A stretch of 47,804 nucleotides of DNA from a virus (lineage: Duplodnaviria; Heunggongvirae; Uroviricota; Caudoviricetes): IMG/VR virus record IMGVR_UViG_2541047728_000005. One strand, 5' to 3'. How positions within the stretch are numbered: position 1 is the first letter of the stretch; every line of letters starts with the position of its first letter. This document shows positions 96 through 47,804 of this stretch, piece after piece. The notes under the pieces are model-generated. The model was given only the letters and a program-made list of their open reading frames with translations. It made no database searches and had not been told where the DNA came from. A program made the position numbers and the translations under genes.

Positions 96-479
96 TGAGG
101 CTGTATATGGTTCGCCAGGTGGTGATGTTTCAAACCATTCTGTTATGTTTACCTCTCCACCCAAGCTATTTACTACATCTTCAACCGCTGCCCTTGTACC
201 CTTTATTCGCTTTGTTCGTATTATTGATTTAAAAACAGAACGCTTTAACGATACAGGCCAACTATCCCTCCATGTATCAGCATTCCATTGCCAAGCTAAA
301 TGATCGAGAACAACTGAGTCCAGGTTATCAACAACGCTATATATTTCTGTCTTATATATTAAATTGTTAATTGCTTGTAGTTCATCATCAATAGCTTTCG
401 ACATAGCTATCACGTTGGGATCGCTAGCTAAGTTAGGAGGTAAAACATCCAACAAGCTAACATTAAAGATATCAGCCAT
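1..479 (-). CDS. Tail protein I (P2 gpI / Mu gp48-like), 5' part; ORF crosses the circular junction and continues at 47607..47709 (193 aa total)
   Basis: Minus-strand ATG at 479..477 overlaps stop of upstream J-like gene (ATGGCTGA); translation MADIFNVSLLDVLPPN...NITEWFETSPPGEPY resembles P2 gpI; frame continues into window end without stop. Confidence 0.7.
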   Translation of the reverse strand, partial: MADIFNVSLLDVLPPNLASDPNVIAMSKAIDDELQAINNLIYKTEIYSVVDNLDSVVLDHLAWQWNADTWRDSWPVSLKRSVFKSIIRTKRIKGTRAAVEDVVNSLGGEVNITEWFETSPPGEPYTASIVASINSFDGAVPSKEMLEDTLRSIKSAKSA

Positions 480-1596
480 CCTCTAACCCCGCATACTGGC
501 AATTTATATTTCTCTCTCTGGCGACCTGTGTCTCTCCAACCACATTAAAAACAGGACTTGATATTTCTAATCTTTTAGCCCCAGCATTTTTTAAACGTTG
601 AATAATTTCATCTGGATTTATATCTCTTCCCATAACCGAACGTTGCCATTGTTTATACTCATCAATAGCTTTCTCAACCTCACTTTGAATTAAAGTTGTT
701 CTGTTTTTGTCCGATGAGTTAATCCAGTATTTAATTATTATATCGTATTCAATGCTCTCTGGTTTCTTAACAAGAACTTTATCTGTGAATGGTCGAATAT
801 TAGTTGCAGAGAGAACGCTATTTATCTGCTCTAATAGTTCATCAGAAGGTATATCTCCGTTCTCTAACAAAGAACGGATTTCTACAATTCCGGGCGATGG
901 TGTATATACATTCACATCTTTTATATTCTGATTGGCTGTTCTTGTCCAATATTTATAAGAATCCTCCGGCCCTGCTGTAGACAGTTTTTCCGGCGACAGT
1001 TTTATTCTTTCAGCATAATTATCATCTGACTCCGTATCAGCACCAGAATTAGATGTTGTTACATTCCTTACTCTGGAAACATACGGCAACGGAGTCACCA
1101 ACTCATTTATTTGCCCTGGTAAAAAGCCATTCCCAGATAAACCAGGTATAACAGCATATCCTGAGACTGTACCAACTGTTTTCCCAGCAGGTATTTCCAA
1201 CAAAATATCTGTTTGGAAAATAACACCATTTCCAGTTGAAACTTGAGTGCCAGCAGGTATTGTATATATCCCCGATAATTTTGTTGACAGATTAAACTCA
1301 AATGTAGTCAAGGCAGATTGAGCTTCCAGCCTAGGCGTATCCGTCAGATAGCCTATATGGTCGAGATATTCACCTTCACCATATGTAAGAAGGTTTTGTT
1401 TTGCAGAAAAATCGATAGCTTTTCTTTGCTGTATAATAATCTCACACAATGATAAGATGAATAATCTACGTGGATCAGCAGGTGCTAATGTTTCACCTGT
1501 TATACTCTCAAAAGCCCTGATTGAACGAGTTGTTATATCAGTCGGGTTAGAATCTGCGAAAGTAATATCTGGCAAACCACCACGCGGCAACGTCAT
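472..1596 (-). CDS. Baseplate protein J-like (P2 gpJ / Mu gp47 family)
   Basis: 374-aa ORF between W-like and I-like genes in conserved V-W-J-I-H-G order; translationally coupled to gene I. Confidence 0.65.
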   Translation of the reverse strand: MTLPRGGLPDITFADSNPTDITTRSIRAFESITGETLAPADPRRLFILSLCEIIIQQRKAIDFSAKQNLLTYGEGEYLDHIGYLTDTPRLEAQSALTTFEFNLSTKLSGIYTIPAGTQVSTGNGVIFQTDILLEIPAGKTVGTVSGYAVIPGLSGNGFLPGQINELVTPLPYVSRVRNVTTSNSGADTESDDNYAERIKLSPEKLSTAGPEDSYKYWTRTANQNIKDVNVYTPSPGIVEIRSLLENGDIPSDELLEQINSVLSATNIRPFTDKVLVKKPESIEYDIIIKYWINSSDKNRTTLIQSEVEKAIDEYKQWQRSVMGRDINPDEIIQRLKNAGAKRLEISSPVFNVVGETQVARERNINCQYAGLEDG

Positions 1597-1913
1597 TCTC
1601 TAACTCCTATCACAAGTTTTGGCCTAATAAAACCATCAGAAACGTCCGTTCTTTCAAAAGTAACAGAATGGATAATCGCTCTAGGCTCAAACTCACTAAT
1701 TTTTTGAATTATTTCTCGTGTTGCTGTAGCAATAAAAATTGGACTAGGGCTATCAACAAGACTTGAATTAATTCCTAATTTTCTGGCATATGGTACAGTG
1801 CCAATTTGAGTATTAATAATAGTAGAGACATTTTGCAAAACTTCTTCTACAACTGTTTTGGGCGACCAATCAATCGAGTAAGAAGGTGATGATATGGTAA
1901 ACGTATTATTCAT
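1593..1913 (-). CDS. Baseplate wedge protein, GPW/gp25-like
   Basis: 106-aa ORF, size and position upstream of J-like gene; overlapping stop/start with neighbours. Confidence 0.55.
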   Translation of the reverse strand: MNNTFTISSPSYSIDWSPKTVVEEVLQNVSTIINTQIGTVPYARKLGINSSLVDSPSPIFIATATREIIQKISEFEPRAIIHSVTFERTDVSDGFIRPKLVIGVRE

Positions 1914-2377
1914 AATAATTTACCTAACGCACTTCTAGTTTTTGACTCTATATTGCCAGCAATATCAACTAATGCTTCTTTCAGAGAGGTCTGTCCGACT
2001 TCCTGTAATTTAATGCCGACGATAATCACTCGTGGATTCCCAGTTGGACCGAAATAAGTCCATGATTCCTCTATATCTGTAATTATAAAATTACCAAAAT
2101 ACTGAATACCAATTACAACAGGATTTACTTCCTGAATTGATTGCATTGTCCTAAGTAATGAAAGCGCAGCCAATGGAACAATGCCAAGTGTTGTATCCAA
2201 CCGCATATTAAAACTAACTTCATCCAGATCTGGACCTATATCCTCCAGAACAGGTTTAAGCCCAATAACATCATGGCGCGCTACACGACGCTTTGACGTC
2301 CTTTTAAAATTGTTGAACGTATTCACCACTATTGATGAGGCAACAAAAGGCATTGTACCAAGCATACCCACAATCAT
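1910..2377 (-). CDS. Baseplate-associated hypothetical protein
   Basis: 155-aa ORF translationally coupled inside baseplate operon. Confidence 0.4.
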   Translation of the reverse strand: MIVGMLGTMPFVASSIVVNTFNNFKRTSKRRVARHDVIGLKPVLEDIGPDLDEVSFNMRLDTTLGIVPLAALSLLRTMQSIQEVNPVVIGIQYFGNFIITDIEESWTYFGPTGNPRVIIVGIKLQEVGQTSLKEALVDIAGNIESKTRSALGKLL

Positions 2378-2994
2378 GCCTGAGCCTCCGTTGTCGGAGC
2401 GTATTCCCCCTGAGCTGTGTGATGGTGGCCTTTAGATTTAATCCCATCAACATCTATATCACCACCAACAACCTTAACATTCCCAGAAATTGTAGCTGCA
2501 ACACCTCCAGCAGAAGATCCTTTCATTCCACCTTTGAAGGTTAGTAATCCTTCAACTGTAGCATTTCCGGTAATGATGGTTTCTGGAGCATCAATAGTTA
2601 CGGTTCCTGTAGCCTTAATGGTTACATCTCCGACAGCATCAACAAGGAGTAAATTAGATTCTCTGTCTATCTCAATACGAGTTCCGTTATTAAATCTAAT
2701 GACGCGTTTATTAACAGTATTAGATGGCGGCTTCTGTGTTTCATCATAAAAACTACCAAGAATAAAACCTTGTTGCGGCCCCGCGGGATGAAAGATACAC
2801 AAAACTTGCTCACCAATATCTGGCATCCAGTAATCAGCATTCTTATCTGTATTTTTCACAATAACTGATAACTTTGCCGAAGTGACGTTATCCTGATCAT
2901 CGAAAGTAACTCTTGCTGTAACATCACCATCATCAATATCAGAAACAACGCCAACTCTTATAGTCTGACGTAATAATGTTTCTAAATCATTCAT
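2374..2994 (-). CDS. Baseplate spike / assembly protein V-like
   Basis: 206-aa ORF with Gly/Thr/Val-rich beta-helix-like C-terminus (GDVTIKATGTVTIDAP...), position after D-like gene. Confidence 0.6.
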   Translation of the reverse strand: MNDLETLLRQTIRVGVVSDIDDGDVTARVTFDDQDNVTSAKLSVIVKNTDKNADYWMPDIGEQVLCIFHPAGPQQGFILGSFYDETQKPPSNTVNKRVIRFNNGTRIEIDRESNLLLVDAVGDVTIKATGTVTIDAPETIITGNATVEGLLTFKGGMKGSSAGGVAATISGNVKVVGGDIDVDGIKSKGHHHTAQGEYAPTTEAQA

Positions 2995-2996
2995 AA

Positions 2997-3998
2997 TTAA
3001 TACCCATTAATTACTCTTCGGACATCAATCGAGGTGGTATAACCACTAGTCCCAATTGAATGCACAGCTTTCGATATAAGATATTTTCCAGAAAATGAAC
3101 CGAATCCCTCCAGATTTATAGTTACACCAGCTACCAATCTGGTGTCTCCAACCAATACTAAAGATCCGGTATTTTGATATCTATTTTTAAGCCGCAAAGC
3201 AGCCTTTGCCTTACGTTTTGCTTCATCTAAATTAGCTACCAGTTTTCTTATCTTAAGATTCGACCCTTCTTCTACGGATGGATCTACCCAAGTATACGAA
3301 AGCGACTTTCTTTTTTTAGGTACGCGATATTTGCACGTGCAACTTTTATACAAATCTGTAGATTGTGTGCTAAAGCTATATCTGATTATCTCATCAATAC
3401 CTAACGTAAGCGTAGCGATAGGATCTTTTTGCTCAAACATCTCTTGAGCAAATATTATTAATTGGCTATCAGTGACCTTTAACGACAACCCTTCATCCTG
3501 GCAAAGTCGATGGAGAAATTTTAAATCGCTTTCCTCCATTTGATCTTCACGCGCATAATATGGATTACTATCACCATCAATAAGAAACAACAGTTCAAGG
3601 TTAGCTAATTTAGCTATAGAAGTTGCTATATCTTTAAGAGTTGTTTTTTCCCATGCATTACTTTTTAAATCACGTCTAATGCCTGATGAAACAGGAACAG
3701 AAACAGCAGTTACCTCAACCACAGAAGGTGGTCCAGAGCAAGTTATGCCATCTACCTGGAATTTCCCGCACTCAAGGACGATTTGATTTATAGGCTTAAA
3801 GCTCAAATCAATAAAATCACCCTTTTTAGGTGTCCAGTCTCCAGACCATTTCCCATCATCATTTTTTAATATAATAGAAATATCATCGACCTGACCATCT
3901 TCATTATCTGTATAAGACATTGACAAAACATCAGGTGACATATGAGCGGTAATATTTACATTCTGATATATAACATCAAAAAGCGTTTTACGTAACAC
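2997..3998 (-). CDS. Tail protein D-like (P2 gpD / Mu gpP late control D family)
   Basis: 333-aa ORF downstream of tape measure and X-like gene, as in Mu/P2 tail operons. Confidence 0.55.
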   Translation of the reverse strand: MLRKTLFDVIYQNVNITAHMSPDVLSMSYTDNEDGQVDDISIILKNDDGKWSGDWTPKKGDFIDLSFKPINQIVLECGKFQVDGITCSGPPSVVEVTAVSVPVSSGIRRDLKSNAWEKTTLKDIATSIAKLANLELLFLIDGDSNPYYAREDQMEESDLKFLHRLCQDEGLSLKVTDSQLIIFAQEMFEQKDPIATLTLGIDEIIRYSFSTQSTDLYKSCTCKYRVPKKRKSLSYTWVDPSVEEGSNLKIRKLVANLDEAKRKAKAALRLKNRYQNTGSLVLVGDTRLVAGVTINLEGFGSFSGKYLISKAVHSIGTSGYTTSIDVRRVINGY

Positions 3999-4206
3999 TA
4001 TTGCGTCTCCACGGAGGAAAATTGTTTACTGATATTGGCATAACCGGAGCATCAGGAACTTTAAGAATAATTCCCGCAGAAAAAAGCACCGTAAAGCGGT
4101 GCTCAGTATTAGCATCAATAAGAAGATAAGACAGGTACTCATTACCATACAACTTTAAAGCGATACTATCCCATGAGTCCCCTTGAACCGTTCTATAATC
4201 ATCCAA
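3988..4206 (-). CDS. Small tail protein X-like (LysM-like)
   Basis: 72-aa ORF directly after tape measure gene; MDDYRTVQGDSWDSIALKLYG resembles LysM-type tail protein X. Confidence 0.45.
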   Translation of the reverse strand: MDDYRTVQGDSWDSIALKLYGNEYLSYLLIDANTEHRFTVLFSAGIILKVPDAPVMPISVNNFPPWRRNSVT

Positions 4207-6991
4207 AACTTAATCTCCGTTGTTGGAACATATGAGCACTCAATTTCTTCTCAAAATCAGAATATCCCGCATCTAATGCTCTTTTAGCTGCCGCCTCAGT
4301 TTCCTTTGGTGAACCAGCCGGAAGATTGATTACAGGTGAATAGGTTATTCCACCAGTCACAGCGTTAACGTTCTGGCGAGGTCCAGAAGTCCCAGCGGCA
4401 GATATCCCGTGAGGTGATAAATTTGATTGCCCGAACTTGCTTGCTATTGCATTCTGTAAGCTGTTATTCCTGCTAACACCTGATGCCAGAGTAGTCATTA
4501 TTGCACCACCTGACTTTGTTAGCTGTGAGAATGGACCTTTTTTCGCGTCAGAGAACGGTAAATACTCACGTACAGAAGAAAAAACGCCTTTCACTTCATT
4601 AATTAAAGCATTTGCTTTTGATTTTATCCCAGTGATTAACGTCTCAATTATTTTTGCGCCTGACTCACTCCAGTTTATTCCAGATAAATAAGTCGTTACA
4701 GATTGGAATGCTCTTATAAAGAGTCCAACTGGTGAAAAACGCATAAAAACAGATACCAGTGTATCTATGATTTTCTTTCCTGTTTCGCTCCAGTTAATGC
4801 CAGAAAGGTAATTTGTTGTAATTTTAAATGCTTTAATTAAGAACGGAAGCGGAGACATCCATTTAAAAGCACTAATTAATGTACTGTAAATTCTTACTCC
4901 TGCCGAACTCCAGTTTATGTTGGAAAGATAATCCCATGCTTTACCAAACATAGATATAATCCATCCATTGAGGTCAAAGTTTAAGATAAAGTTTTTTATA
5001 GCCTCAAATGATTTAACTGTATATTCCTTAACAGAAGGCCAAACTCTGACAGCATAATCTCTGATCTTATCCCAATTCTGATAGAGCAATATTCCTGCGG
5101 CAACCAGCGCAGATATAGCCATCTGAATCCACCCGAAGGGTGTTAGCTTTGTCGCTACAGATAAAGCCAGCATAGCTACCCTACACGCTATAACCACACT
5201 TTTCATGGTTAGAAACGCACCTGCCGCCATCACTATCTGAGACACAAAATTGGGGTTGTTAGCTACAAATTCACTAATTTTTGTAATCAGCGGAACCAAA
5301 ACACTAAGCGCGGCATTCAAAGCAGGTTGCAAGGCCTGACCAAAACTTAATGATGCATTGCTAGCCTGAATACGTAATTGTTTCAATCGCTCCGCATTAT
5401 CTTTCGTTATGTTGGCAAAATCGCGGTCAATAACAGCACTTCCAGCTCCAAGAGATGTTGCTTTGATTCTCTGGTATTCCTTCCAGTTTTGAATCATCGG
5501 ACGAACAAAGTTCTGAACCTGCATATCGCCAAATAGTTCACCAAGTAACTTCTGATCTCCGTTCTTAGTCATTTTCATGACAGAATGCATTGCAGCTTCG
5601 AATGGATTCTTCCCTTTTTTCTGCGCTGTTGTAACAATTTTATATAAATCTACACCGAAATTTTTCTTTGCTTTTTTTAGTGTTTCAGGGGAAAGTATTT
5701 TTGCCAAAAAGTTGTTCATATTATTAGCAGCCTCATCCGAAGTTGCAGCCCCCTTGCGAGCTATCTGCAAAGCTGCACCCATCGTCGCGGCTGCTTCTTT
5801 ACCTCCCATTTTTAATGCCTGGAACTGAGCACCAAGCACAGGAAGATTTTTGGCCATATCTTTAAATTCAAAGTTCCCCTCTTTCCCTGCCTGAACCAGA
5901 ATCCCCATTGCAGACTTCATTTGAGATGGATCAATCTTCAATGAGTCACTTAATGTAAATGATGCTTTCGAGACATCGAGGATATCAGAGCCAGTAGCTG
6001 TAGCTGTTCGCCCAATAGTTAGTAGATTCGCCTGAGCCTCTTTATAATCCTGCCCAGCAGCGACGAGAAAACCCTGAGCGGCCTGAATATCAGATGCAAA
6101 CTGGTTGGTAGCCGTTCCGGTAACAAGCATCGCCTGCCCCATCGCCTGAACTTCTTCCGGCTTCATATCTGCCGTAAGACCAATCATTTTGTTTTCACGA
6201 TTGAAATTTGCTGCATTGTTAGCAGCAGCAAATGCACCAGCCGCTACAGCACCAGTTTGTAATCCTGACCTTACAAGTTGACTCTTTGCCTCACCAAGAT
6301 GCTCTCGCTTCAATTCACGCTGCCTTTCCAACGCGCGGTTTAACTCCTCCTGAGCACGTTTTACTGCAAGAACATTTTTCCGTGCTTCAGCCAACGCATT
6401 TTTATAGCTGTTAATTTTATCAATACGTTGTTTTTCTAATGCCCGGTTAAGTTCCTCCTGCTGTTTTTTCACTTGCTGAACATTTGCTCTGGCTAAAGCC
6501 AAAGCCGTTCTGTAGCGGTTAACCTGCTCAACGCTACGGGCCTGAGCCTCACGATTACGATCAATGCTGGCTTTAAGCTCTTTCTCTCTTGAGGCCAAAG
6601 CTCTGGCAGATGTATCAGCTCCCTGATAGGCAGACTTTAAAGCGGCCAGTTCTTCACGCTGAGAACGTAGTGATGCTCGTAAATTTGATGAATGTGTTTT
6701 TGCCTTCTCAAAGTCACGAAGCATCGCTCTGGTTGGATTGGCCGTGTTTTTTATTTGCTTCTGTAACTCTTCAACGCGAGCGGCAGCTTTATGATATTCG
6801 AGGGCAGTCTGTCCAACCTTTACTTTTACAGATTGTAGCTTTTGAATTTCCCCATGTTCTTTCGTTAATCCAGCAAGCTCTGCATTTAATTTAGCAACAG
6901 CCTGATTAGCTGTAGTAAAACTTTTGGGGAGAGAGGCGGCAACTTTGCCGCCAATTTCAAAAGCCAGCTTAAAGTTCTTATTGCTGGCCAT
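4199..6991 (-). CDS. Tail tape measure protein
   Basis: 930-aa ORF; N-terminal coiled-coil with repeated AxLxRxxEE heptads, central hydrophobic segments, three tandem ~37-aa repeats ending in YLSGINWSE; follows chaperone gene. Confidence 0.85.
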   Translation of the reverse strand: MASNKNFKLAFEIGGKVAASLPKSFTTANQAVAKLNAELAGLTKEHGEIQKLQSVKVKVGQTALEYHKAAARVEELQKQIKNTANPTRAMLRDFEKAKTHSSNLRASLRSQREELAALKSAYQGADTSARALASREKELKASIDRNREAQARSVEQVNRYRTALALARANVQQVKKQQEELNRALEKQRIDKINSYKNALAEARKNVLAVKRAQEELNRALERQRELKREHLGEAKSQLVRSGLQTGAVAAGAFAAANNAANFNRENKMIGLTADMKPEEVQAMGQAMLVTGTATNQFASDIQAAQGFLVAAGQDYKEAQANLLTIGRTATATGSDILDVSKASFTLSDSLKIDPSQMKSAMGILVQAGKEGNFEFKDMAKNLPVLGAQFQALKMGGKEAAATMGAALQIARKGAATSDEAANNMNNFLAKILSPETLKKAKKNFGVDLYKIVTTAQKKGKNPFEAAMHSVMKMTKNGDQKLLGELFGDMQVQNFVRPMIQNWKEYQRIKATSLGAGSAVIDRDFANITKDNAERLKQLRIQASNASLSFGQALQPALNAALSVLVPLITKISEFVANNPNFVSQIVMAAGAFLTMKSVVIACRVAMLALSVATKLTPFGWIQMAISALVAAGILLYQNWDKIRDYAVRVWPSVKEYTVKSFEAIKNFILNFDLNGWIISMFGKAWDYLSNINWSSAGVRIYSTLISAFKWMSPLPFLIKAFKITTNYLSGINWSETGKKIIDTLVSVFMRFSPVGLFIRAFQSVTTYLSGINWSESGAKIIETLITGIKSKANALINEVKGVFSSVREYLPFSDAKKGPFSQLTKSGGAIMTTLASGVSRNNSLQNAIASKFGQSNLSPHGISAAGTSGPRQNVNAVTGGITYSPVINLPAGSPKETEAAAKRALDAGYSDFEKKLSAHMFQQRRLSFG

Positions 6992-41859: not shown

Positions 41860-42138
41860 GGGCGAACATATTCACAGGCAAAGCCTGCGTAAGTTAAATA
41901 AAGAAAGTCTTAATAAAAGAAAGTGATTTTGCATTTATTTGTTTAGTGCATCTATTATAAAAAACCATTTGCATATACATATCAGAACTGTGGATAACTT
42001 TATTAGCCGATGCCTGTAAAGGCGATATTTTTGCTGTGTTCAGGTTTAGAGAAAATTAATTTAGATTGTTTTTTGAACAGATATTTTATTGCGACGTAGA
42101 TAATCCTCCGGTAAAACCGGATTCATCATTCAGGTGGG
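41860..42138. other. Candidate plasmid origin region downstream of repA (AT-rich, DnaA box TTATCCACA at 41989..41997 on minus strand)
   Basis: Perfect DnaA box consensus; location immediately 3' of repA as in IncFII oriR; flanking hairpins at 41746..41762, 41781..41804, 41841..41856. Confidence 0.45.
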
Positions 42139-43119
42139 TTAATGTTGGAGTGATTTCCAGGTCTTTCTTAACCTGTTATAACGCTGCTCAACGAGGGATC
42201 GTAAATATGCAAGGTCAGCACCAGGATACATGCCATCAGCAAATTCCTGACTAACCTCTCTGGTGATTTGATGACGAAGTTCGGCCTCTCCCTTTTCCCG
42301 AACAAGACGCGCAGCTCTCTCCGCTGCTTTCTGTTTTGCCTTTATCTCTCTGGCCGTCTTCCTCTGACGCCATACATTCTCCATCTGCTCCTGAATAACA
42401 ATACGCTTATAATCAGCCTCCGTTATCGCTTTTTTAAGCCGTTCGCTATTCTTCGCATTGAAGTAATTAAGTTTCTGGCTAACCGCACGTCTCCATGCTT
42501 GTTCAGTAATACCAACGGTTTCCAGCAGTTGATCACGAATCTCTATTTTCGCTGGCCAATACTGTTTATTCACCCGATCCCAGCGACGTTCATAATCAAT
42601 AAAACCTAACGCTTTCAGTTGCGACAACGCCCTTGTACAGCGCGTTATAGACTTGTTCCCAGCTTCGGATACGGTAGACAGGCCGCAAAAATCAGCCAAC
42701 GCCTCAGCACTAGCCAGAACCCGCTTAGAAATGATGTTTACATGGTGCAAAATCGCAGCGATCACAGCATTAATCGCCCGACGACGATGCTCGTTTATCC
42801 GGCGCTTCCGCTCTGACGGTTGATTAACGTAGAACGCAACCTCACACGTAAGATCACGCCCATTAATGCGCTGTAAAGCATCAGATAACACCAGCGGCAG
42901 CTTGTGCGTATGGTGCTTTGGAGGCTGGAACTCCGGCGACAAATTACAAACGTAAGCTGAACGTAGAGACGGCATTGGTCTATCCATATGTTCGCTCTTG
43001 CGTCCACGGAAAACCAACGTATAATGGGAGTTGTCGAGGCGCCCATGGATTGTTGTTGTTGGTTTTCCGTGGATGTCGCAAGAAGCCCGCAGATTTATCT
43101 GCGGGCTTTTTGTTTCCAT
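42139..43119 (-). CDS. repA: Replication initiator RepA (IncFII RepA1 family); true start possibly internal Met at 42987
   Basis: Segment RRRAINAVIAAILHHVNIISKRVLASAEALADFCGLSTVSEAGNKSITRCTRALSQLKALGFIDYERRWD closely parallels my recollection of R100/R1 RepA1. Confidence 0.8.
   Translation of the reverse strand: METKSPQINLRASCDIHGKPTTTIHGRLDNSHYTLVFRGRKSEHMDRPMPSLRSAYVCNLSPEFQPPKHHTHKLPLVLSDALQRINGRDLTCEVAFYVNQPSERKRRINEHRRRAINAVIAAILHHVNIISKRVLASAEALADFCGLSTVSEAGNKSITRCTRALSQLKALGFIDYERRWDRVNKQYWPAKIEIRDQLLETVGITEQAWRRAVSQKLNYFNAKNSERLKKAITEADYKRIVIQEQMENVWRQRKTAREIKAKQKAAERAARLVREKGEAELRHQITREVSQEFADGMYPGADLAYLRSLVEQRYNRLRKTWKSLQH
43031..43112 (+). ncRNA. CopA-like antisense RNA candidate in repA leader
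   Basis: Plus-strand TTGCGT-N16-TATAAT (42998..43025) followed ~60 nt later by 11-bp GC hairpin agcccgcagat...atctgcgggct and TTTTTGTTT (43084..43115), antisense to repA 5' region. Confidence 0.5.
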
Positions 43120-43585
43120 ATCTGGTCACTTTCCAACCAGACACCCACAATCATAACCACGTTACGTGGTTTTAAGAGAACTCTACCACAACACTTTCGG
43201 TCATGCACGAAGTCTCTCACTGATCGAACGATAATCCACCAGTAAAAGGATCTAAATTGGATCTCGTTTTGCGAGCATCATACTACTGGCCTAACTCCAG
43301 TCAATGATTCCCAGCCAGAAACCTGCGGTAAACTCATCGTTCAGCAATATGCTGTCCGGCTTCAAAGATAAGGTGACATCATCCCTTAACAGCGCGGCCA
43401 GTTCAGTTAAAGGGCTGTTCTGATTTAATGCTGGCCACTCATACCTGGTAATAAGTGGTCAGTCTTAACACTCACTATTTGATTGCACCCGTGTTGACGA
43501 TTTGTTACTGGATATCAGACACGCTGGATAGCCAGTAGAAACATACCATTAAAATTATTACAATAATTGGTCACATGATTATCTT

Positions 43586-44149
43586 ATGCTGAATAATAAA
43601 GATATGAATATTAATGAACTTAAAGACTGTATTCACTATGAAGTAATCGGTAGCGAGCGTCCTTTCTCCTGGCGAAAGGCAATTGTTCGCGCAATAAAAC
43701 ATAGAAGGGTTCGTTATTTATTTTGGTGGCGCATAGCCAAATACCTTTTTGATAAAGGCGGATACTGTCGGAAGATTGCGGGAAAAATAGAACGTTTCAT
43801 TCTTGATAAATATAATGTAACAGTCCCTTTAACTGTAAATATAGGGAAAGGCTTTGATATTTCTTATCTCAACAGTGTTGTTATCGGTCACAAAGTAACA
43901 ATCGGTGAAAATTGTTCAATTAAGCCCGGAGTAACTATTGGACTTCGCGGGGAATTTAATGATATGGATATTGTTATAGGGCATAATGTGACCATTGGTT
44001 GTAATGCCACCATTCTTGGTGGCAAAGTGCGTATAGGAAACAATGTCACAATAGGTGCTCATGCATTGGTATTGCATGATATTCCTGATGATTCAACATT
44101 CATCACTAAATTTCAGTCTGAAGTTATCTGCTCGTCCTCCCGAACATAA
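43586..44149 (+). CDS. Hexapeptide-repeat (left-handed beta-helix) acetyltransferase, moron-like
   Basis: 187 aa with tandem [LIV]-G-x-x-x-x-I-G repeats ([21 protein letters not shown]...[32 protein letters not shown]); AT-rich; convergent with and overlapping 3' end of tfa. Confidence 0.8.
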
Positions 44150-44730
44150 CCCTGATTCATCAGCTCTGGCCATACGATATCCGGAGCTGTACTGGTGTCA
44201 ATTCTACTCACTAATACTCTGTATTTTCTCCAGGAATCCAGTTGTGAATTTTCCTCGTTTGTTGCTATTTCAAGATTAACTGCATCCTGCAGAATTGCGA
44301 TGTTATCTGTTGCTTCCTGGATCAACCTTGCCTTTTTCTCTTCCGCTTCCCGTATCCGAAACAGTTTTTCTGCTTCCTCATCATTCACCCAGGATACGCC
44401 GTCCCACTTCTGATACTCCCCTGCTGGCGACAACCAGGTGACATTCTCTGGTAGCGGTCCGAGTTCAGAAATAAACAATGCGTCCCCCGACGCCACGTCA
44501 TAGACCGTTTTACCACGATGGTCTTCAACAATATTCCACGATTCATTTTCACTGTTAAAAACTGCCACAAAGCCAGCAGGAATTTCCGGTGGGGCGATAT
44601 CTGTAGAATTAGCTGGCAGCCCTGTATGAGGTGGAATATATGCGTCACCTTCACCAATAAACTCATTAGTTCCGGCCAGCAGGTTATAAATTTTTACGGT
44701 ACGTGATTGTTCACTCATTCTGAATGCCAT
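44113..44730 (-). CDS. Tail fibre assembly protein (Tfa family)
   Basis: 205 aa beginning [58 protein letters not shown], closely resembling E. coli prophage Tfa proteins; TAATG overlap with fibre gene. Confidence 0.85.
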
Positions 44731-47576
44731 TATGCAAGCCTCACAATATAATTAAATGCGATGTTTTTAACGGTGTTTTCCGCGTTACCAGCAGCGTTAA
44801 CGGTGATGGTGTGTCCATGTGAACCAATCGCAACAGAGTGCGTATGAGCGCCAATACCAACAGTGTGTGCATGTGCCCCAGCACTTGTAGCGGTACCTGA
44901 TACTGAGTGGGTATGTGCGCCAGAAGAAGGCACAGTTCCATTCCCCACCACCGTGCCACTTGATGAACCATCCAGCCAGTCGAAATTCATACCGCCACTG
45001 TTTGGTCTCCTTAATGGAACGGTATGAGTATGTGCGCCAGCACTATTTGCAGTACCAGATACATTATGGGTATGTGCACCTGTGTTATTCGTTGATTTAG
45101 TACCGTAATCAAACGACGATGTGGTTTTCGTACCCAAATCCGTATTGGATGCGCTGGCACTGTGGGTGTGCGATTTAATGCCATCCTGTTCCTGAGACAA
45201 TACGGCCCGACCACTGGCGGGTTTGCCCTTGATTGTCCAGCCGCGCATATCTGGAATAACACCAGAAGGATAGGCAATAGCCAGTTTCGGATATGCTGCC
45301 TTATCAAACGTCTGCCCCAGCATGATTGCATAACCTGCAGGTGGCGTATCTGATGGCCACGGCAGCGGAACACCTGGCGGAAACGCTTCAATATTTGCCG
45401 AGCCGTCAAATTTTACGCCGTTAATTGTCCTTGCCGTTTTCAGCTTTGTTGCTGTAGCAGCATTGCCGGATAGTTCGCCTGAAAGACCACCGCTGAATGT
45501 CTGTTTCGCCATCCATGTCTGAGCTTCGTCGATAATTGGCACACGTCTTGTCGTGATCGTGCGGCTTCCCGGATTTCCTGAAATGCGAACCATAAAAAAG
45601 CGGTAGTTGGCTTTACTTACAGTGCTGCGCCATACATGCATTGAGCGTCCCGAACCAGAATCATCACTCGGACCGACTGAGATGTTTATCAGGTTGCCAT
45701 CAATGACGCCCCAGTCCATACCGTCGGGAATATTGGTCATGTTATCAAGCCGAACGGTTATCAGACTGCCCGGCACAAAATCGTAGGTCTGCCAGTCCAG
45801 GCTGGTGAGCTTTGCCACAGCACCGCCGATACCCAGATTCAGGGGAAGTGAATACGAGGTGTAGACTTCCCGCCATTCGCTCCATGAGCTGCCGGTAAAG
45901 ACGCGCTCAAAGGTGCGGCCTTTAAGGGTTGTACCTGTTCCGGCAGTTGTATAACGCTGCCATACATTAACACCATCAAAGCGCCTCAACACCTCCAGAA
46001 TACCGAGGACTGTCACGCCGTTTCCGTCCAGTATTGGACCGTTGGTCGCTTTACCTGTAACGCTGTAAATACCTGGTGAGGTTACATCATTCAAATCACC
46101 GTCGTAATAACGACTCTCTGACTGATGACCGACTCTTAACCACGGTTCCCACTGCGGATTTGATGCATCCCAGCTTGCCGCAAGACAGCGGACATACATA
46201 TTTCCACGGCGAGTGGTATAACGTTGCGTTCTTCCATAATTTCCGCCTTCGAGGATCTCAAGCATCCCCTGAGCAAAGCCGCCTTCCTCTGGATAATTGC
46301 GTTCATATGAAGCTATAGCTGAGCTACTGTTACGCCATAAACCAAGATGCTCGGCGGCTCCAAGCGTATTCAGGTCTATAGTCGTACTCAAAGGGCGGGT
46401 AGCAGATTGAGTGTGACGCCATACGCCCCACGGACCATCAGTGCCATTCCACTTATTGGCGAGTTTACGCATGTATACATTGCCGTCTCTCGTGGTAAAG
46501 CGTTGCGTACCTGCAAAATTGCCGGCAGCAAAAACCTCAAGCACACCGACAGCATTATCTTCCGGGAAATTTTTCTCCAGTGTTGCGTTGGTGGATGTTG
46601 CTTTAGACCAGATACCTGAATAAGCCTTAACAGGACCAAACGTATTCAGATCAGCATCAAGCGGCATTTCGCCATTGTTTTTCATAAACGTCAGGCTGGT
46701 AACGCCAACATTGTCCAGAAAAGCTGATTTATCCTGGATATCTGCACCGTTCTGATTTTTCGCCAGACGTGAATTTGCGTTGTCATTTGCTGCCTTGACC
46801 GCTTTTGGCGTTGCCGCCTGCGTTTCAGACGTACTGTTAGTGGCACTACTGAGCTGAACAATCCCTTTTCGCGCCGTGGTAGCGTCCTGTGCGGTGTATT
46901 TAGCGTTAGCCAGGTCATATGCAGCCTTAACAGCCTTAGGCGTCGCTGCGAGCTTTTCAGACGTGCTATTGGTGGCATTACTGAGTTGAACAATGCCTTT
47001 TGATGTTAAAGTTGCATCAGGATGATTACGTGATTGCTCATGTTTTACAATAGCTTGCTTAAGCCGCTTTGCTGAAACAGCCAAGGAATCATCTGTACCT
47101 GCATCAATTTCTTGTTCATTAGCAAATCTTGCTACTCCAACAACAGTTTCGGTTGCGGGAGGGTTAATAAACTCAACATCACCAAATGTAATGTTTTTAG
47201 TATCAAGATTTTTAATTGCTATATCACTTGATATTAAAGCAATTGTAGAAGATGCTTTATTTATTATTACTTGTTCTTGCGAGTATACAGCAAACAATGT
47301 TCCTTTATTTGTATACAAACCTATTGTATGGACAACATACTCATCTTTACTATCATCCTTCGCAGTTACATGAATGGTATCAGGAGAAACGACTTTGCCT
47401 CCTATTGTGGTAAGTCGCTTTATTTCATCTGTTATTTTTGTTTGTGTGGTTGATGTGGCATAATATCTACTACCTAAACCAACAGAAACGATCTCAACTT
47501 TATTTGTTCCAGTCTTGTTGGCATTAACCAGCGCCTTACGCCCGGCGTCAGTCATCGTAAATAATAATTTACTCAC
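44730..47576 (-). CDS. Tail fibre protein (P2 gpH / lambda Stf-like) with C-terminal HxH repeat tip
   Basis: 948 aa, GTG start with AAGGAA RBS; duplicated [27 protein letters not shown] motif as in P2 gpH; C-terminal GAHTHxV repeats. Confidence 0.85.
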
Positions 47577-47606
47577 GCTTAATTCCTTGGATTAACAAAT
47601 CGCAAA

Positions 47607-47804
47607 TTAGCACTCACCAATTAATCGTACATAAGACACAGGCTGGAAAGCACCGACAATACCAACACCACCTGAAACATTGGTTGCTTGCGAAAATGTA
47701 AATAGTGTTCTTGCCGACTTTGCACTCTTGATACTTCTTAACGTATCCTCCAACATCTCTTTCGAAGGAACAGCACCATCAAAAGAGTTAATCGAAGCAA
47801 CAAT
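47607..47804 (-). CDS. Tail protein I (gpI-like), 3' part continuing from 1..479 across the circular junction
   Basis: Reading frame from 479 continues through 47709 to TAA at 47609..47607; 47710..47804 duplicates 1..95. Confidence 0.65.
   Translation of the reverse strand: MVASINSFDGAVPSKEMLEDTLRSIKSAKSARTLFTFSQATNVSGGVGIVGAFQPVSYVRLIGEC

What the first reader, a model, noticed from the sequence alone, without database searches (positions are those of the whole stretch)
44730..45200. Tail fibre tip with tandem GxHxH repeats
The C-terminal ~120 residues contain repeated GAHTHx[15 protein letters not shown] units, the kind of His-x-His motif that coordinates metal in T4 gp37 and lambda-like fibre tips. 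Together with the E. coli-like Tfa this points to an enterobacterial LPS or outer-membrane receptor. The repeat region is also a likely site of recombinational host-range switching.
Basis: partly seen in the sequence, partly recalled or inferred. Interest (0 to 1): 0.35.

Follow-up and report, generated by a model that had tools for sequence, protein, structure and literature searches.

The report
T4 gp37-type tail fibre tip
The end of this E. coli phage-plasmid's tail fibre gene encodes a well-known needle-shaped receptor-binding tip, the kind solved for phage T4 gp37 and shared with lambda side fibres, with all seven metal-binding His-x-His motifs intact; it is a correct but ordinary finding.

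Summary
The window is essentially a whole 47.8-kb E. coli phage-plasmid (100% identical over the fibre-tfa stretch to pECO-b75). Its 948-aa tail fibre gene (44730-47576, minus strand) ends in a 233-aa module that aligns end to end with the crystallised T4 gp37 tip (2XGF, E = 8e-82, 63% identity).

- **Motifs:** all seven HxH motifs, 14 His, align with those of T4, which coordinate seven iron ions there.
- **Chaperone:** a lambda-type Tfa follows with a 1-nt overlap. It is 81% identical to lambda Tfa and 28% to T4 gp38.
- **Where it varies:** identity to T4 is 80% in the collar, 67% in the stem and 11% in the distal tip subdomain. Among 120 homologues, variation is confined to aa 852-885, exactly between HxH boxes 3 and 4.
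- **Recombination:** DNA breakpoints against relatives fall at His boxes, which supports cassette exchange. There is no invertase and no tandem DNA repeat.
- **Receptor:** it cannot be read from the sequence.

The family is already described (Bartual 2010; Magaziner & Salmond 2022), so this is a new member of a known kind.

One side observation may be worth following. This particular tip cassette travels with an AT-rich hexapeptide acetyltransferase gene across P2-like prophages, P1-like plasmids and this plasmid.

The parts
44730..47576 (-). Tail fibre gene, 948 aa, GTG start; stop codon at 44730-44732
   Evidence: ORF. The gene has the same length and position as the RefSeq 'tail fiber protein' WP_001523079.1 in pECO-b75. 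Pfam finds Phage_fiber_2 (3e-41), Collar (2e-9) and Phage_fiber (5e-6). It lies downstream of the baseplate J and tail protein I genes.
44733..45431 (-). gp37/Stf-type receptor-binding module (aa 716-948): collar, needle stem and tip
   Evidence: phmmer against PDB gives 2XGF (T4 gp37 residues 785-1026) at E = 8e-82, aligned through to the last residue. Identity is 63% overall. PHROG 295 'tail fiber protein' matches at 4e-132.
45174..45389 (-). Collar domain, N-terminal part (aa 730-801; maps to T4 gp37 811-881)
   Evidence: Pfam Collar PF07484 covers aa 735-782. Mapping to T4 domains comes, with borders taken from Islam 2019. Collar identity to T4 is 79.5%.
45024..45173 (-). Descending stem strand (aa 802-851) carrying HxH boxes 1-3
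   Evidence: The stem is 67% identical to T4.
44922..45023 (-). Hypervariable tip cassette (aa 852-885, [34 protein letters not shown]). It corresponds to the T4 tip subdomain 932-959 plus a short linker, and is the presumed receptor-contact surface.
   Evidence: Identity to the query among 120 homologues is about 10-30% here, against more than 90% in the flanks. Only 3/28 residues are identical to T4. DNA homology to relatives is interrupted exactly here. The cassette is present in 172 of 5426 E. coli genomes.
44784..44921 (-). Ascending stem strand (aa 886-931) carrying HxH boxes 4-7
   Evidence: The residues are nearly invariant among homologues.
44733..44783 (-). Collar domain, C-terminal part (aa 932-948, ...[15 protein letters not shown])
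   Evidence: This segment is identical to the T4 gp37 C-terminus over the last 15 residues.
45162..45170 (-). HxH box 1 (H803-T-H805), aligned with T4 H883/H885
45066..45074 (-). HxH box 2 (H835-T-H837), aligned with T4 H915/H917
   Evidence: one search shows the neighbouring columns, T4 914/916 against query 834/836, which places T4 H915/H917 opposite query H835/H837. A DNA breakpoint against L003 and L005 falls at aa 837.
45024..45032 (-). HxH box 3 (H849-T-H851), aligned with T4 H929/H931
   Evidence: A DNA breakpoint against L004 falls at aa 849. H929 and H931 are essential in T4.
44907..44915 (-). HxH box 4 (H888-T-H890), aligned with T4 H966/H968
   Evidence: DNA homology to L003, L004 and L005 resumes at aa 885/886.
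44865..44873 (-). HxH box 5 (H902-A-H904), aligned with T4 H980/H982
   Evidence: DNA homology to the sister plasmid L007 resumes at aa 904.
44838..44846 (-). HxH box 6 (H911-T-H913), aligned with T4 H989/H991
44811..44819 (-). HxH box 7 (H920-G-H922), aligned with T4 H998/H1000
45018..45080 (.). Upstream arm (in gene orientation) of the 63-nt direct repeat, encoding [21 protein letters not shown] (boxes 2-3)
   Evidence: the repeat finder family D1: 76% identity, 159-nt spacing.
44859..44921 (.). Downstream arm of the 63-nt direct repeat, encoding [21 protein letters not shown] (boxes 4-5)
   Evidence: The box 2-3 arm of the window also cross-matches the box 4-5 segment of relatives.
44113..44730 (-). 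Tail fibre assembly chaperone Tfa, 205 aa. Its ATG overlaps the fibre stop codon (TAATG).
   Evidence: Pfam Caudo_TAP at 1e-39. It is 81% identical to lambda Tfa and 28% to T4 gp38 (E = 4e-12). The C-terminal part matches Mu protein U, 5YVQ_B. PHROG 105 matches at 1e-93.
43586..44149 (+). Linked neighbour, not part of the fibre: a hexapeptide-repeat acetyltransferase. It is convergent with tfa and overlaps the tfa 3' end by 37 nt.
   Evidence: Pfam Hexapep at 1e-12. The best NCBIfam matches are EpsC, CysE and WcaB, all far below their cut-offs. PHROG 2154, of unknown function, matches at 7e-79. GC is 37%. Co-occurrence with the tip cassette.

Best explanation
The finding is the C-terminal receptor-binding module of the tail fibre of a temperate myovirus that is maintained as an IncFII-RepA plasmid in E. 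coli. It is a true homologue of the T4 gp37 / lambda Stf tip.

By homology with the solved T4 structure, three chains should form a collar. Each chain then runs down a thin six-stranded needle, forms a small distal head, and runs back up to end in the collar. Seven HxH motifs per chain would stack along the needle axis, each layer of six His holding one metal ion (iron in T4). These ions rivet the trimer together.

The downstream Tfa, which is lambda-type and related to gp38, is the folding chaperone.

Host specificity sits in the 34-residue head cassette between HxH boxes 3 and 4. The conserved His-box DNA on either side is shared with tips in most E. coli genomes. It serves as homology for swapping the cassette by general recombination.

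- **Shown here:** homology, motif conservation, gene order, the location of variability, and the breakpoints.
- **Inferred:** trimeric fold, metal binding, chaperone dependence, and receptor binding by the cassette.
For: - **Homology to the solved structure:** end-to-end phmmer match to 2XGF, E = 8e-82.
- **Metal ligands:** all 14 His aligned with the T4 HxH motifs. G841 and G886 correspond to the essential T4 residues G921 and G964. Seven iron atoms coordinated by these His are reported in T4.
- **Domain-wise identity to T4:** 79.5% collar, 67% stem, 10.7% tip.
- **Location of variability:** confined to aa 852-885 in 120 homologues. The His and most stem residues are invariant in a 62-sequence alignment.
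- **Chaperone:** Tfa lies directly downstream and overlaps the fibre stop codon. Caudo_TAP 1e-39; 81% identical to lambda Tfa and 28% to T4 gp38.
- **Published description of the family:** homology in the last ~215 aa, divergence at the specificity region, and a gp38-like chaperone adjacent (PMC9659904). The T4 g37 3' end and g38 derive from a lambda-like phage (PMC3157838). The Ur-lambda Stf tip is structurally like gp37 (PMC12617516).
- **Recombination:** DNA breakpoints against five relatives fall at aa 837, 849, 885/886 and 904. Flanking tip DNA is present in 3905 of 5426 complete E. coli genomes, typically as two pieces that skip the cassette.
- **Context:** a complete myovirus virion gene set and an IncFII repA on one 47.6-kb circular plasmid.
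Against: - No structural confirmation was obtained. The AF2 monomer model was unusable (pLDDT 49, pTM 0.22).
- Metal binding, trimerisation and chaperone dependence are inferred from T4 and not tested.
- F970 of T4, which packs against G921, is Val here.
- Production of infectious particles by this plasmid family is not documented in what I could read. The phage record ON470591 is a predicted prophage.
- Breakpoints at His boxes are expected to some degree simply because these are the most conserved DNA stretches. They show where homology ends, not the mechanism of exchange.
Confidence: 0.9

Rival explanations
1. The fibre gene is a relic on a cryptic, defective phage-plasmid. Under this reading the HxH tip is conserved by descent but no longer used for adsorption.
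For: No isolated, plaque-forming phage with this cassette was found. The only phage-collection record with it is a computationally predicted prophage. Many related tips in E. coli chromosomes sit in defective prophages such as Rac and Qin, some fused to unrelated ORFs.
Against: The fibre and tfa ORFs are intact. The 3.46-kb fibre-tfa stretch is 99-100% identical in about 17 independent plasmids of 47-50 kb from different sources. pECO-b75 carries a full set of terminase, portal, capsid, sheath, tube, tape measure, baseplate and lysis genes.
Confidence: 0.1
2. Host range is switched by a programmed site-specific inversion of the fibre 3' end, as in P1 (Cin), Mu (Gin) or e14/Rac (Pin), rather than by occasional homologous recombination.
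For: Related tips in the Rac and Qin prophages lie next to the pinR and pinQ invertase genes. The fibre carries Mu S-like repeats.
Against: The whole plasmid has no recombinase or invertase gene annotated. The window holds no second tip or tfa copy. The only inverted repeat in 42000-47804 is a 25-nt, 76% match that looks like chance.
Confidence: 0.02
3. The needle is only a scaffold, and receptor recognition is done by a separate adhesin bound to its end, as with the gp38 adhesin of T2/T6-type phages.
For: In most T-even phages the gene after g37 encodes an adhesin, not a chaperone (PMC3157838).
Against: The downstream gene here is a Caudo_TAP chaperone, 81% identical to lambda Tfa. It is related to the T4-type gp38 chaperone, not to T2-type adhesins. 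The fibre carries the T4-type C-terminal extension that itself provides the adhesin function in T4. Some Tfa proteins do stay bound to the fibre (Mu U in 5YVQ), so a minor accessory role of Tfa in binding is not excluded.
Confidence: 0.05
4. The HxH enrichment is a compositional or low-complexity artefact with no metal-binding role.
For: The region is rich in G, A, S, T and H, and BLAST's low-complexity filter masks part of it.
Against: None of 20,000 shuffles reached 7 HxH. All 14 His are in register with the iron ligands of a crystal structure. Nearly all are invariant across 62 homologues: 12 are invariant, and the two His of box 2 are conserved in at least 90%.
Confidence: 0.01

Closest known systems
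Phage T4 gp37 long tail fibre tip (domains D10-D11; PDB 2XGF, Bartual et al. 2010; functional map in Islam et al. 2019, PMC6957217)
   Same: - The lengths match (233 vs 227 aa) and the two align end to end at 63% identity.
- Both have a collar domain, seven HxH motifs in register, and an identical C-terminal ...[15 protein letters not shown].
- In both, a chaperone gene follows directly downstream.
   Different: - The tip subdomain is unrelated: 3/28 identical and 2 residues longer. T4's OmpC and LPS-glucose specificity therefore cannot be transferred.
- The chaperone is lambda-type Tfa, only 28% identical to gp38.
- No gp57A homologue was looked for.
- The module sits on a 948-aa P2/Mu-style single-protein fibre of a temperate phage-plasmid, not on a four-protein T-even long fibre.
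Lambda (Ur-lambda) side tail fibre Stf with Tfa, and the E. coli prophage homologues StfR/TfaR and StfQ/TfaQ
   Same: - The tip module is the same, with its stem and collar nearly identical at protein level to the prophage tips and closely similar in lambda Stf.
- Tfa is 81% identical to lambda Tfa.
- The stf-tfa gene order is the same, and a convergent accessory gene follows tfa.
- stfR matches at 80% DNA identity over the whole tip.
   Different: - The head cassette differs. Lambda's is longer, and lambda has an extra FDYGTK unit and an extra HxH.
- The N-terminal attachment part differs: here it is a baseplate fibre of a myovirus, in lambda a side fibre of a siphovirus.
- Lambda Stf binds OmpC. 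The receptor here is unknown.
The 'T4- and lambda-based RBP family' of Magaziner & Salmond 2022 (PMC9659904), which includes Citrobacter phage PhiNP ORF6 and phages TuIa and TuIb
   Same: It fits every feature they list:
- homology limited to the last ~215 aa;
- divergence centred on the specificity region;
- a gp38/Tfa-like gene of 184-207 aa directly downstream (here 205 aa, of the lambda-type branch);
- an enterobacterial host.
   Different: This member is carried on a plasmid-prophage. Its cassette is not one of the five with known receptors (LPS Glc-II, OmpC, OmpF and others).
His-box model of adhesin exchange in T-even phages (Tetart et al. 1996 and 1998; cited from my own knowledge, papers not held in the library)
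   Same: Conserved GxHxH boxes flank a hypervariable segment. Homology with relatives breaks at these boxes. A pair of diverged direct repeats flanks the cassette.
   Different: Here the partners for exchange are resident prophages and plasmids of E. coli (3905 of 5426 genomes carry the flanks), not co-infecting lytic phages. No exchange event was observed directly.

Membership tests
T4 gp37 / lambda Stf receptor-binding tip family | Sequence homology over the whole collar-needle-tip module of the solved gp37 fragment, ending at the protein's C-terminus | tested here: met
   phmmer against 2XGF gives E = 8e-82. Query aa 716-948 aligns with chain residues 16-242, at 63% identity.
T4 gp37 / lambda Stf receptor-binding tip family | Seven HxH motifs per chain, in register with the iron-coordinating His of gp37 | tested here: met
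   All 14 His align: T4 883/885, 915/917, 929/931, 966/968, 980/982, 989/991 and 998/1000 against query 803/805, 835/837, 849/851, 888/890, 902/904, 911/913 and 920/922.
T4 gp37 / lambda Stf receptor-binding tip family | Phage tail collar domain (Pfam PF07484) preceding the needle | tested here: met
   The Collar match scores 37.5 bits against a cut-off of 24, E = 2.3e-9, over aa 735-782.
T4 gp37 / lambda Stf receptor-binding tip family | A gp38/Tfa-type assembly chaperone gene directly downstream | tested here: met
   Caudo_TAP at 1e-39. The protein is 81% identical to lambda Tfa and 28% to T4 gp38. Its start codon overlaps the fibre stop codon.
T4 gp37 / lambda Stf receptor-binding tip family | Sequence divergence concentrated in the distal tip (specificity) subdomain, with conserved collar and stem | tested here: met
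   Identity to T4 is 79.5% in the collar, 67% in the stem and 10.7% in the tip. The conservation profile over 120 homologues agrees.
T4 gp37 / lambda Stf receptor-binding tip family | Intertwined homotrimeric needle fold with bound Fe(II) | tested here: inconclusive
   The AF2 monomer model has pLDDT 49 and pTM 0.22. A monomer cannot represent this fold, and no multimer prediction or metal analysis was available.
T4 gp37 / lambda Stf receptor-binding tip family | Binds an outer-membrane protein or an LPS core sugar of an enterobacterium | not testable with these tools
   All carriers found are E. coli or close relatives. The cassette has no characterised relative.
Invertible tail-fibre host-range switches (P1 Cin, Mu Gin, e14/Rac Pin) | A serine invertase gene next to the fibre, plus inverted crossover sites and an alternative fibre 3' end with its own tfa in opposite orientation | tested here: not met
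   No recombinase is annotated on the plasmid. The window has no second tip or tfa copy and no meaningful inverted repeat.
Tandem DNA repeat array | Head-to-tail repeated DNA units | tested here: not met
   TRF finds no array in 44700-45450 at a minimum score of 30. There is only a dispersed 63-nt repeat pair at 76% identity.
T2/T6-type gp38 adhesin system | The downstream gene encodes a glycine-rich adhesin that caps a cleaved gp37 | tested here: not met
   The downstream protein is a Caudo_TAP chaperone of the lambda Tfa type.

The most novel reading that the evidence does not exclude
The tip cassette (aa 852-885), its 205-aa Tfa variant and the convergent AT-rich hexapeptide acetyltransferase may form one mobile 'recognise and disguise' unit. 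In this reading the acetyltransferase O-acetylates the surface glycan (LPS core, O-antigen or another polysaccharide) that this tip binds. Lysogens and their debris would then stop adsorbing the phage's own particles and those of other phages carrying the same tip.

The evidence so far is co-occurrence only:
- The cassette is in 172 of 5426 E. coli genomes and the acetyltransferase in 184, whereas the generic tip backbone is in 3905.
- All 4 loci picked through the acetyltransferase carry the cassette, and none of 7 other tips does.
- The unit sits on three different fibre shafts (phage-plasmid, P2-like prophages, P1-like plasmids).

Simple hitchhiking of a neighbouring moron explains the same data.
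Probability: 0.2. Interest if true: 0.5.

Novelty: new member of a known kind. Interest (0 to 1): 0.2.

Why it matters
It matters little for basic knowledge. The gp37/Stf tip, its iron-binding HxH motifs, its Tfa/gp38 chaperone and its modular exchange are textbook, and the family was catalogued in 2022.

There are three practical points:
- The host-range determinant of a phage-plasmid family common in clinical E. coli can be pinned to a 34-residue cassette with defined, conserved flanks. This is the kind of unit used to retarget engineered phages and lambda-based delivery particles.
- The same flanks occur in about 72% of complete E. coli genomes. Resident prophages are therefore a large reservoir for tip exchange.
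- The tight linkage of this cassette to an uncharacterised acetyltransferase gives a cheap, testable lead to its receptor.

Tried and rejected
- **AF2 prediction of aa 716-948 with a 62-sequence alignment.** The model had pLDDT 49 and was unusable. I ran no fold search, because a low-confidence monomer of an intertwined trimer would give meaningless matches.
- **Tandem Repeats Finder on the region.** It found nothing, so 'tandem' is not accurate at DNA level.
- **Search for an invertible switch.** No invertase, no second tip and no inverted repeats. Rejected.
- **tblastn of the cassette with its boxes against 50,697 phage records,** to find a characterised phage with the same tip. Only the prophage version of this same element came back, and the query was partly masked as low complexity. 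No receptor could be inferred.
- **The Bartual 2010 structure paper.** It is not held in the library. I took domain borders and the iron count from Islam 2019 instead.
- **The lead that the neighbouring acetyltransferase is NeaT of CFT073** (PMC3573123). Rejected: NeaT is a membrane Acyl_transf_3 protein (PF01757), not a hexapeptide enzyme. That paper does document the same moron position between P2 genes G and FI.
- **My first hand count of T4's second HxH (914/916).** It was off by one and was corrected to 915/917 by script.
- **NCBIfam scan.** It gave no named family for the fibre or Tfa.
Full report
**What is there.** The coordinates 44730-45200 cover the 3' end of a minus-strand ORF, 44730-47576, 948 aa.

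The window itself is essentially a complete circular E. coli phage-plasmid:
- The fibre-tfa stretch is 100% identical to three 47-50-kb non-mobilisable plasmids, including pECO-b75, and 99% identical to about a dozen more.
- The annotated pECO-b75 record carries terminase, portal, capsid, sheath, tube, tape measure, baseplate V/W/J/I, this fibre, a tail fibre assembly gene, a 'transferase', IncFII repA, ParA/ParB and a toxin-antitoxin pair.
- Pfam finds two Phage_fiber_2 repeats, a Collar domain (aa 735-782) and a Phage_fiber repeat in the fibre. It finds Caudo_TAP in the next gene, Hexapep in the convergent gene after that, and IncFII_repA beyond.

**Check of the observation.** Seven H-x-H motifs start at aa 803, 835, 849, 888, 902, 911 and 920, which is window 44811-45170. 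They hold 14 of the protein's 22 His.
- In 20,000 shuffles of the last 233 aa the mean count was 0.78 and the maximum 5, so the pattern is not chance.
- The quoted peptide strings are all present.
- 'Tandem' is loose. The spacings are 32, 14, 39, 14, 9 and 9 aa, and Tandem Repeats Finder reports no DNA array.
- The only DNA repeat is a 63-nt pair at 76% identity (44859-44921 and 45018-45080). Each arm encodes GAHTHxVSGTAxSAGAHxHTV, and the pair brackets a 96-nt segment.

**What it is.** A phmmer search of the fibre against all PDB sequences gives the T4 gp37 receptor-binding tip (2XGF) at E = 8e-82. Residues 716-948 align with the crystallised fragment through to the last residue.

Islam et al. 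2019 (PMC6957217) give the T4 domain borders: collar D10 is 811-881 plus 1010-1026, stem is 882-931 plus 960-1009, and tip is 932-959. They state that seven iron atoms are coordinated by the His along the needle.

Mapping the alignment shows the following:
- All 14 T4 His (883/885, 915/917, 929/931, 966/968, 980/982, 989/991, 998/1000) are conserved in register.
- Identity is 79.5% in the collar, 67% in the stem and 10.7% (3/28) in the tip subdomain.
- T4's essential G921 and G964 are conserved, whereas the receptor-contact residues of the T4 tip are not.

The downstream protein is 81% identical to lambda Tfa and 28% identical (E = 4e-12, 87% coverage) to T4 gp38. Its C-terminal part matches Mu protein U of the S-U complex 5YVQ. 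Its ATG overlaps the fibre stop codon (TAATG).

The whole two-gene module therefore corresponds to lambda stf-tfa and T4 g37(3')-g38. Trojet et al. 2011 state that T4 acquired exactly this part from a lambda-like temperate phage (PMC3157838). Magaziner & Salmond 2022 describe the family explicitly. It has more than 200 members, homology only in the last ~215 aa, divergence at the specificity region, and a 184-207-aa gp38-like gene always directly downstream. Its characterised receptors include LPS Glc-II, OmpC and OmpF (PMC9659904). The Ur-lambda Stf tip is reported as structurally like gp37 and as binding OmpC (PMC12617516).

**Mosaic structure and recombination.**
- The fibre itself is a patchwork. 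Its middle part (about aa 240-718) is 88-93% identical in DNA to fibres of P2-like phages, and that similarity ends at aa 719, just before the collar.
- The stretch from about aa 327 to the end, plus tfa, is 94% identical to fibres of 94-101-kb plasmids that I take to be P1-like from their size and gene content.
- The tip module has 1738 protein clusters with E <= 1e-10 in the large protein database.
- Tip DNA is found in 3905 of 5426 complete E. coli genomes. Most matches come as two pieces that skip the middle.
- In 120 homologues, identity to the query is above 90% everywhere except aa 852-885, where it falls to 10-30%. This segment lies exactly between HxH boxes 3 and 4 and equals the T4 tip subdomain.
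- DNA homology to five fetched relatives ends at aa 837 (box 2) or 849 (box 3) and resumes at aa 885/886 (box 4). In the sister phage-plasmid pN10e it ends at aa 827 and resumes at aa 904 (box 5).
- Tfa DNA stays 79-84% identical whatever the cassette. This fits a chaperone that recognises the conserved stem or collar.

These results agree with the His-box exchange model proposed for T-even adhesins (Tetart et al. 1996 and 1998, cited from my own knowledge). No invertase, second tip copy or flanking inverted repeat exists here. Switching is therefore by general recombination with other prophages, not by a programmed flip.

**How it most likely works** (inferred from T4). Three chains form the collar. 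Each chain descends as a stem strand carrying boxes 1-3, forms the small distal head (aa 852-885), and ascends carrying boxes 4-7 to finish in the collar. Each HxH layer contributes six His to one metal ion on the axis. Tfa assists trimer folding, and the head contacts the receptor.

The receptor cannot be named. The cassette is unrelated to those of T4, lambda, StfR and the others compared. It was found in no phage record other than the predicted prophage version of this element, in one low-sensitivity search.

**What failed.** An AF2 monomer model was unusable (pLDDT 49), as expected for an intertwined metal-bound trimer, so I ran no fold search. It is made redundant by the 63%-identity match to the crystal structure.

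**Side observation.** The convergent hexapeptide acetyltransferase gene (43586-44149) has these properties:
- GC is 37%, against 44.5% for the window.
- It matches PHROG 2154, of unknown function.
- Its best NCBIfam matches, EpsC, CysE and WcaB, are far below their cut-offs.
- It overlaps the tfa 3' end by 37 nt.

It occurs in 184 E. coli genomes, next to a tfa in 29 of the 30 records listed; the exception is a truncated match next to a 'pyocin knob' protein. The cassette occurs in 172 genomes. Records that appear in both lists have the two about 0.7 kb apart. All four loci fetched through the acetyltransferase carry the same cassette although their fibre shafts differ, whereas none of seven other tips does. 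These four loci are three P2-like prophages and one P1-like plasmid. In the P2-like prophages the gene sits at the known moron position between genes G and FI (PMC3573123).

This may be hitchhiking, or it may be a receptor-modifying partner of this tip. I give the second reading a probability of about 0.2.

**Verdict.** This is a new, uncharacterised member of a well-described family, so interest is low.

Noticed in passing
window 43586-44149 (+): An AT-rich (37% GC) hexapeptide-repeat acetyltransferase gene lies convergent with tfa and overlaps it by 37 nt. It matches PHROG 2154, of unknown function. It co-occurs with this particular tip cassette: 184 and 172 of 5426 E. coli genomes respectively, against 3905 for the generic tip. 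All 4 sampled loci with the acetyltransferase carry the cassette, and none of 7 other tips does. The pair is found in P2-like prophages, P1-like plasmids and this phage-plasmid. It could be a receptor-modifying moron.
   Followed up: partly
window 45747-46691 (-), fibre aa 296-610: The fibre shaft holds two tandem ~100-aa domains that are 42% identical to each other (aa 296-395 and 396-500, E = 1e-23), followed by a weaker third copy (aa 501-610). They look like repeated knob domains. This part is shared at about 93% DNA identity with fibres of P2-like phages.
   Followed up: partly
L007 (plasmid pN10e, NZ_JBUBMA010000006.1) 356-3735: A sister phage-plasmid with the same backbone (tail protein I, fibre, tfa, repA) has a different distal tip from about aa 827. 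It carries an extra 10-residue unit (GTKTVSTFNH), a 191-aa Tfa and no acetyltransferase. This is a natural example of tip replacement within the plasmid family.
   Followed up: partly
L012 (P1-like plasmid NZ_CP033848.1) 5724-6626: A macro-domain protein gene is inserted between the tail fibre gene and tfa. In all other loci examined that carry a gp37-type tip, these two genes abut or overlap.
   Followed up: no
L003 and L005 (lambdoid prophages) about 3823-4560: In lambdoid prophages with a different tip cassette, the position after tfa holds a convergent class I SAM-dependent methyltransferase. In Rac and Qin it holds pinR or pinQ, and in lambda it holds ea47. The slot after tfa is a general cargo site.
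   Followed up: no
window 44113-44160 (-), Tfa C-terminus: This Tfa is 205 aa, against 191-194 aa for lambda Tfa, TfaR and TfaQ. The extra C-terminal residues are encoded by the stretch that overlaps the acetyltransferase 3' end. The three sampled P2-like prophages with the acetyltransferase carry one identical 205-aa allele (WP_000885638.1), and the P1-like plasmid carries another 205-aa Tfa.
   Followed up: no
one search hit list (for example P0039, P0059, P0074, P0078): Several database proteins fuse the gp37-type tip to unrelated N-terminal parts such as terminase, portal or Lom/Ail fragments. An example is the Qin 'terminase' ORF in L004. These look like deletion scars in defective prophages that kept the tip and tfa.
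   Followed up: no
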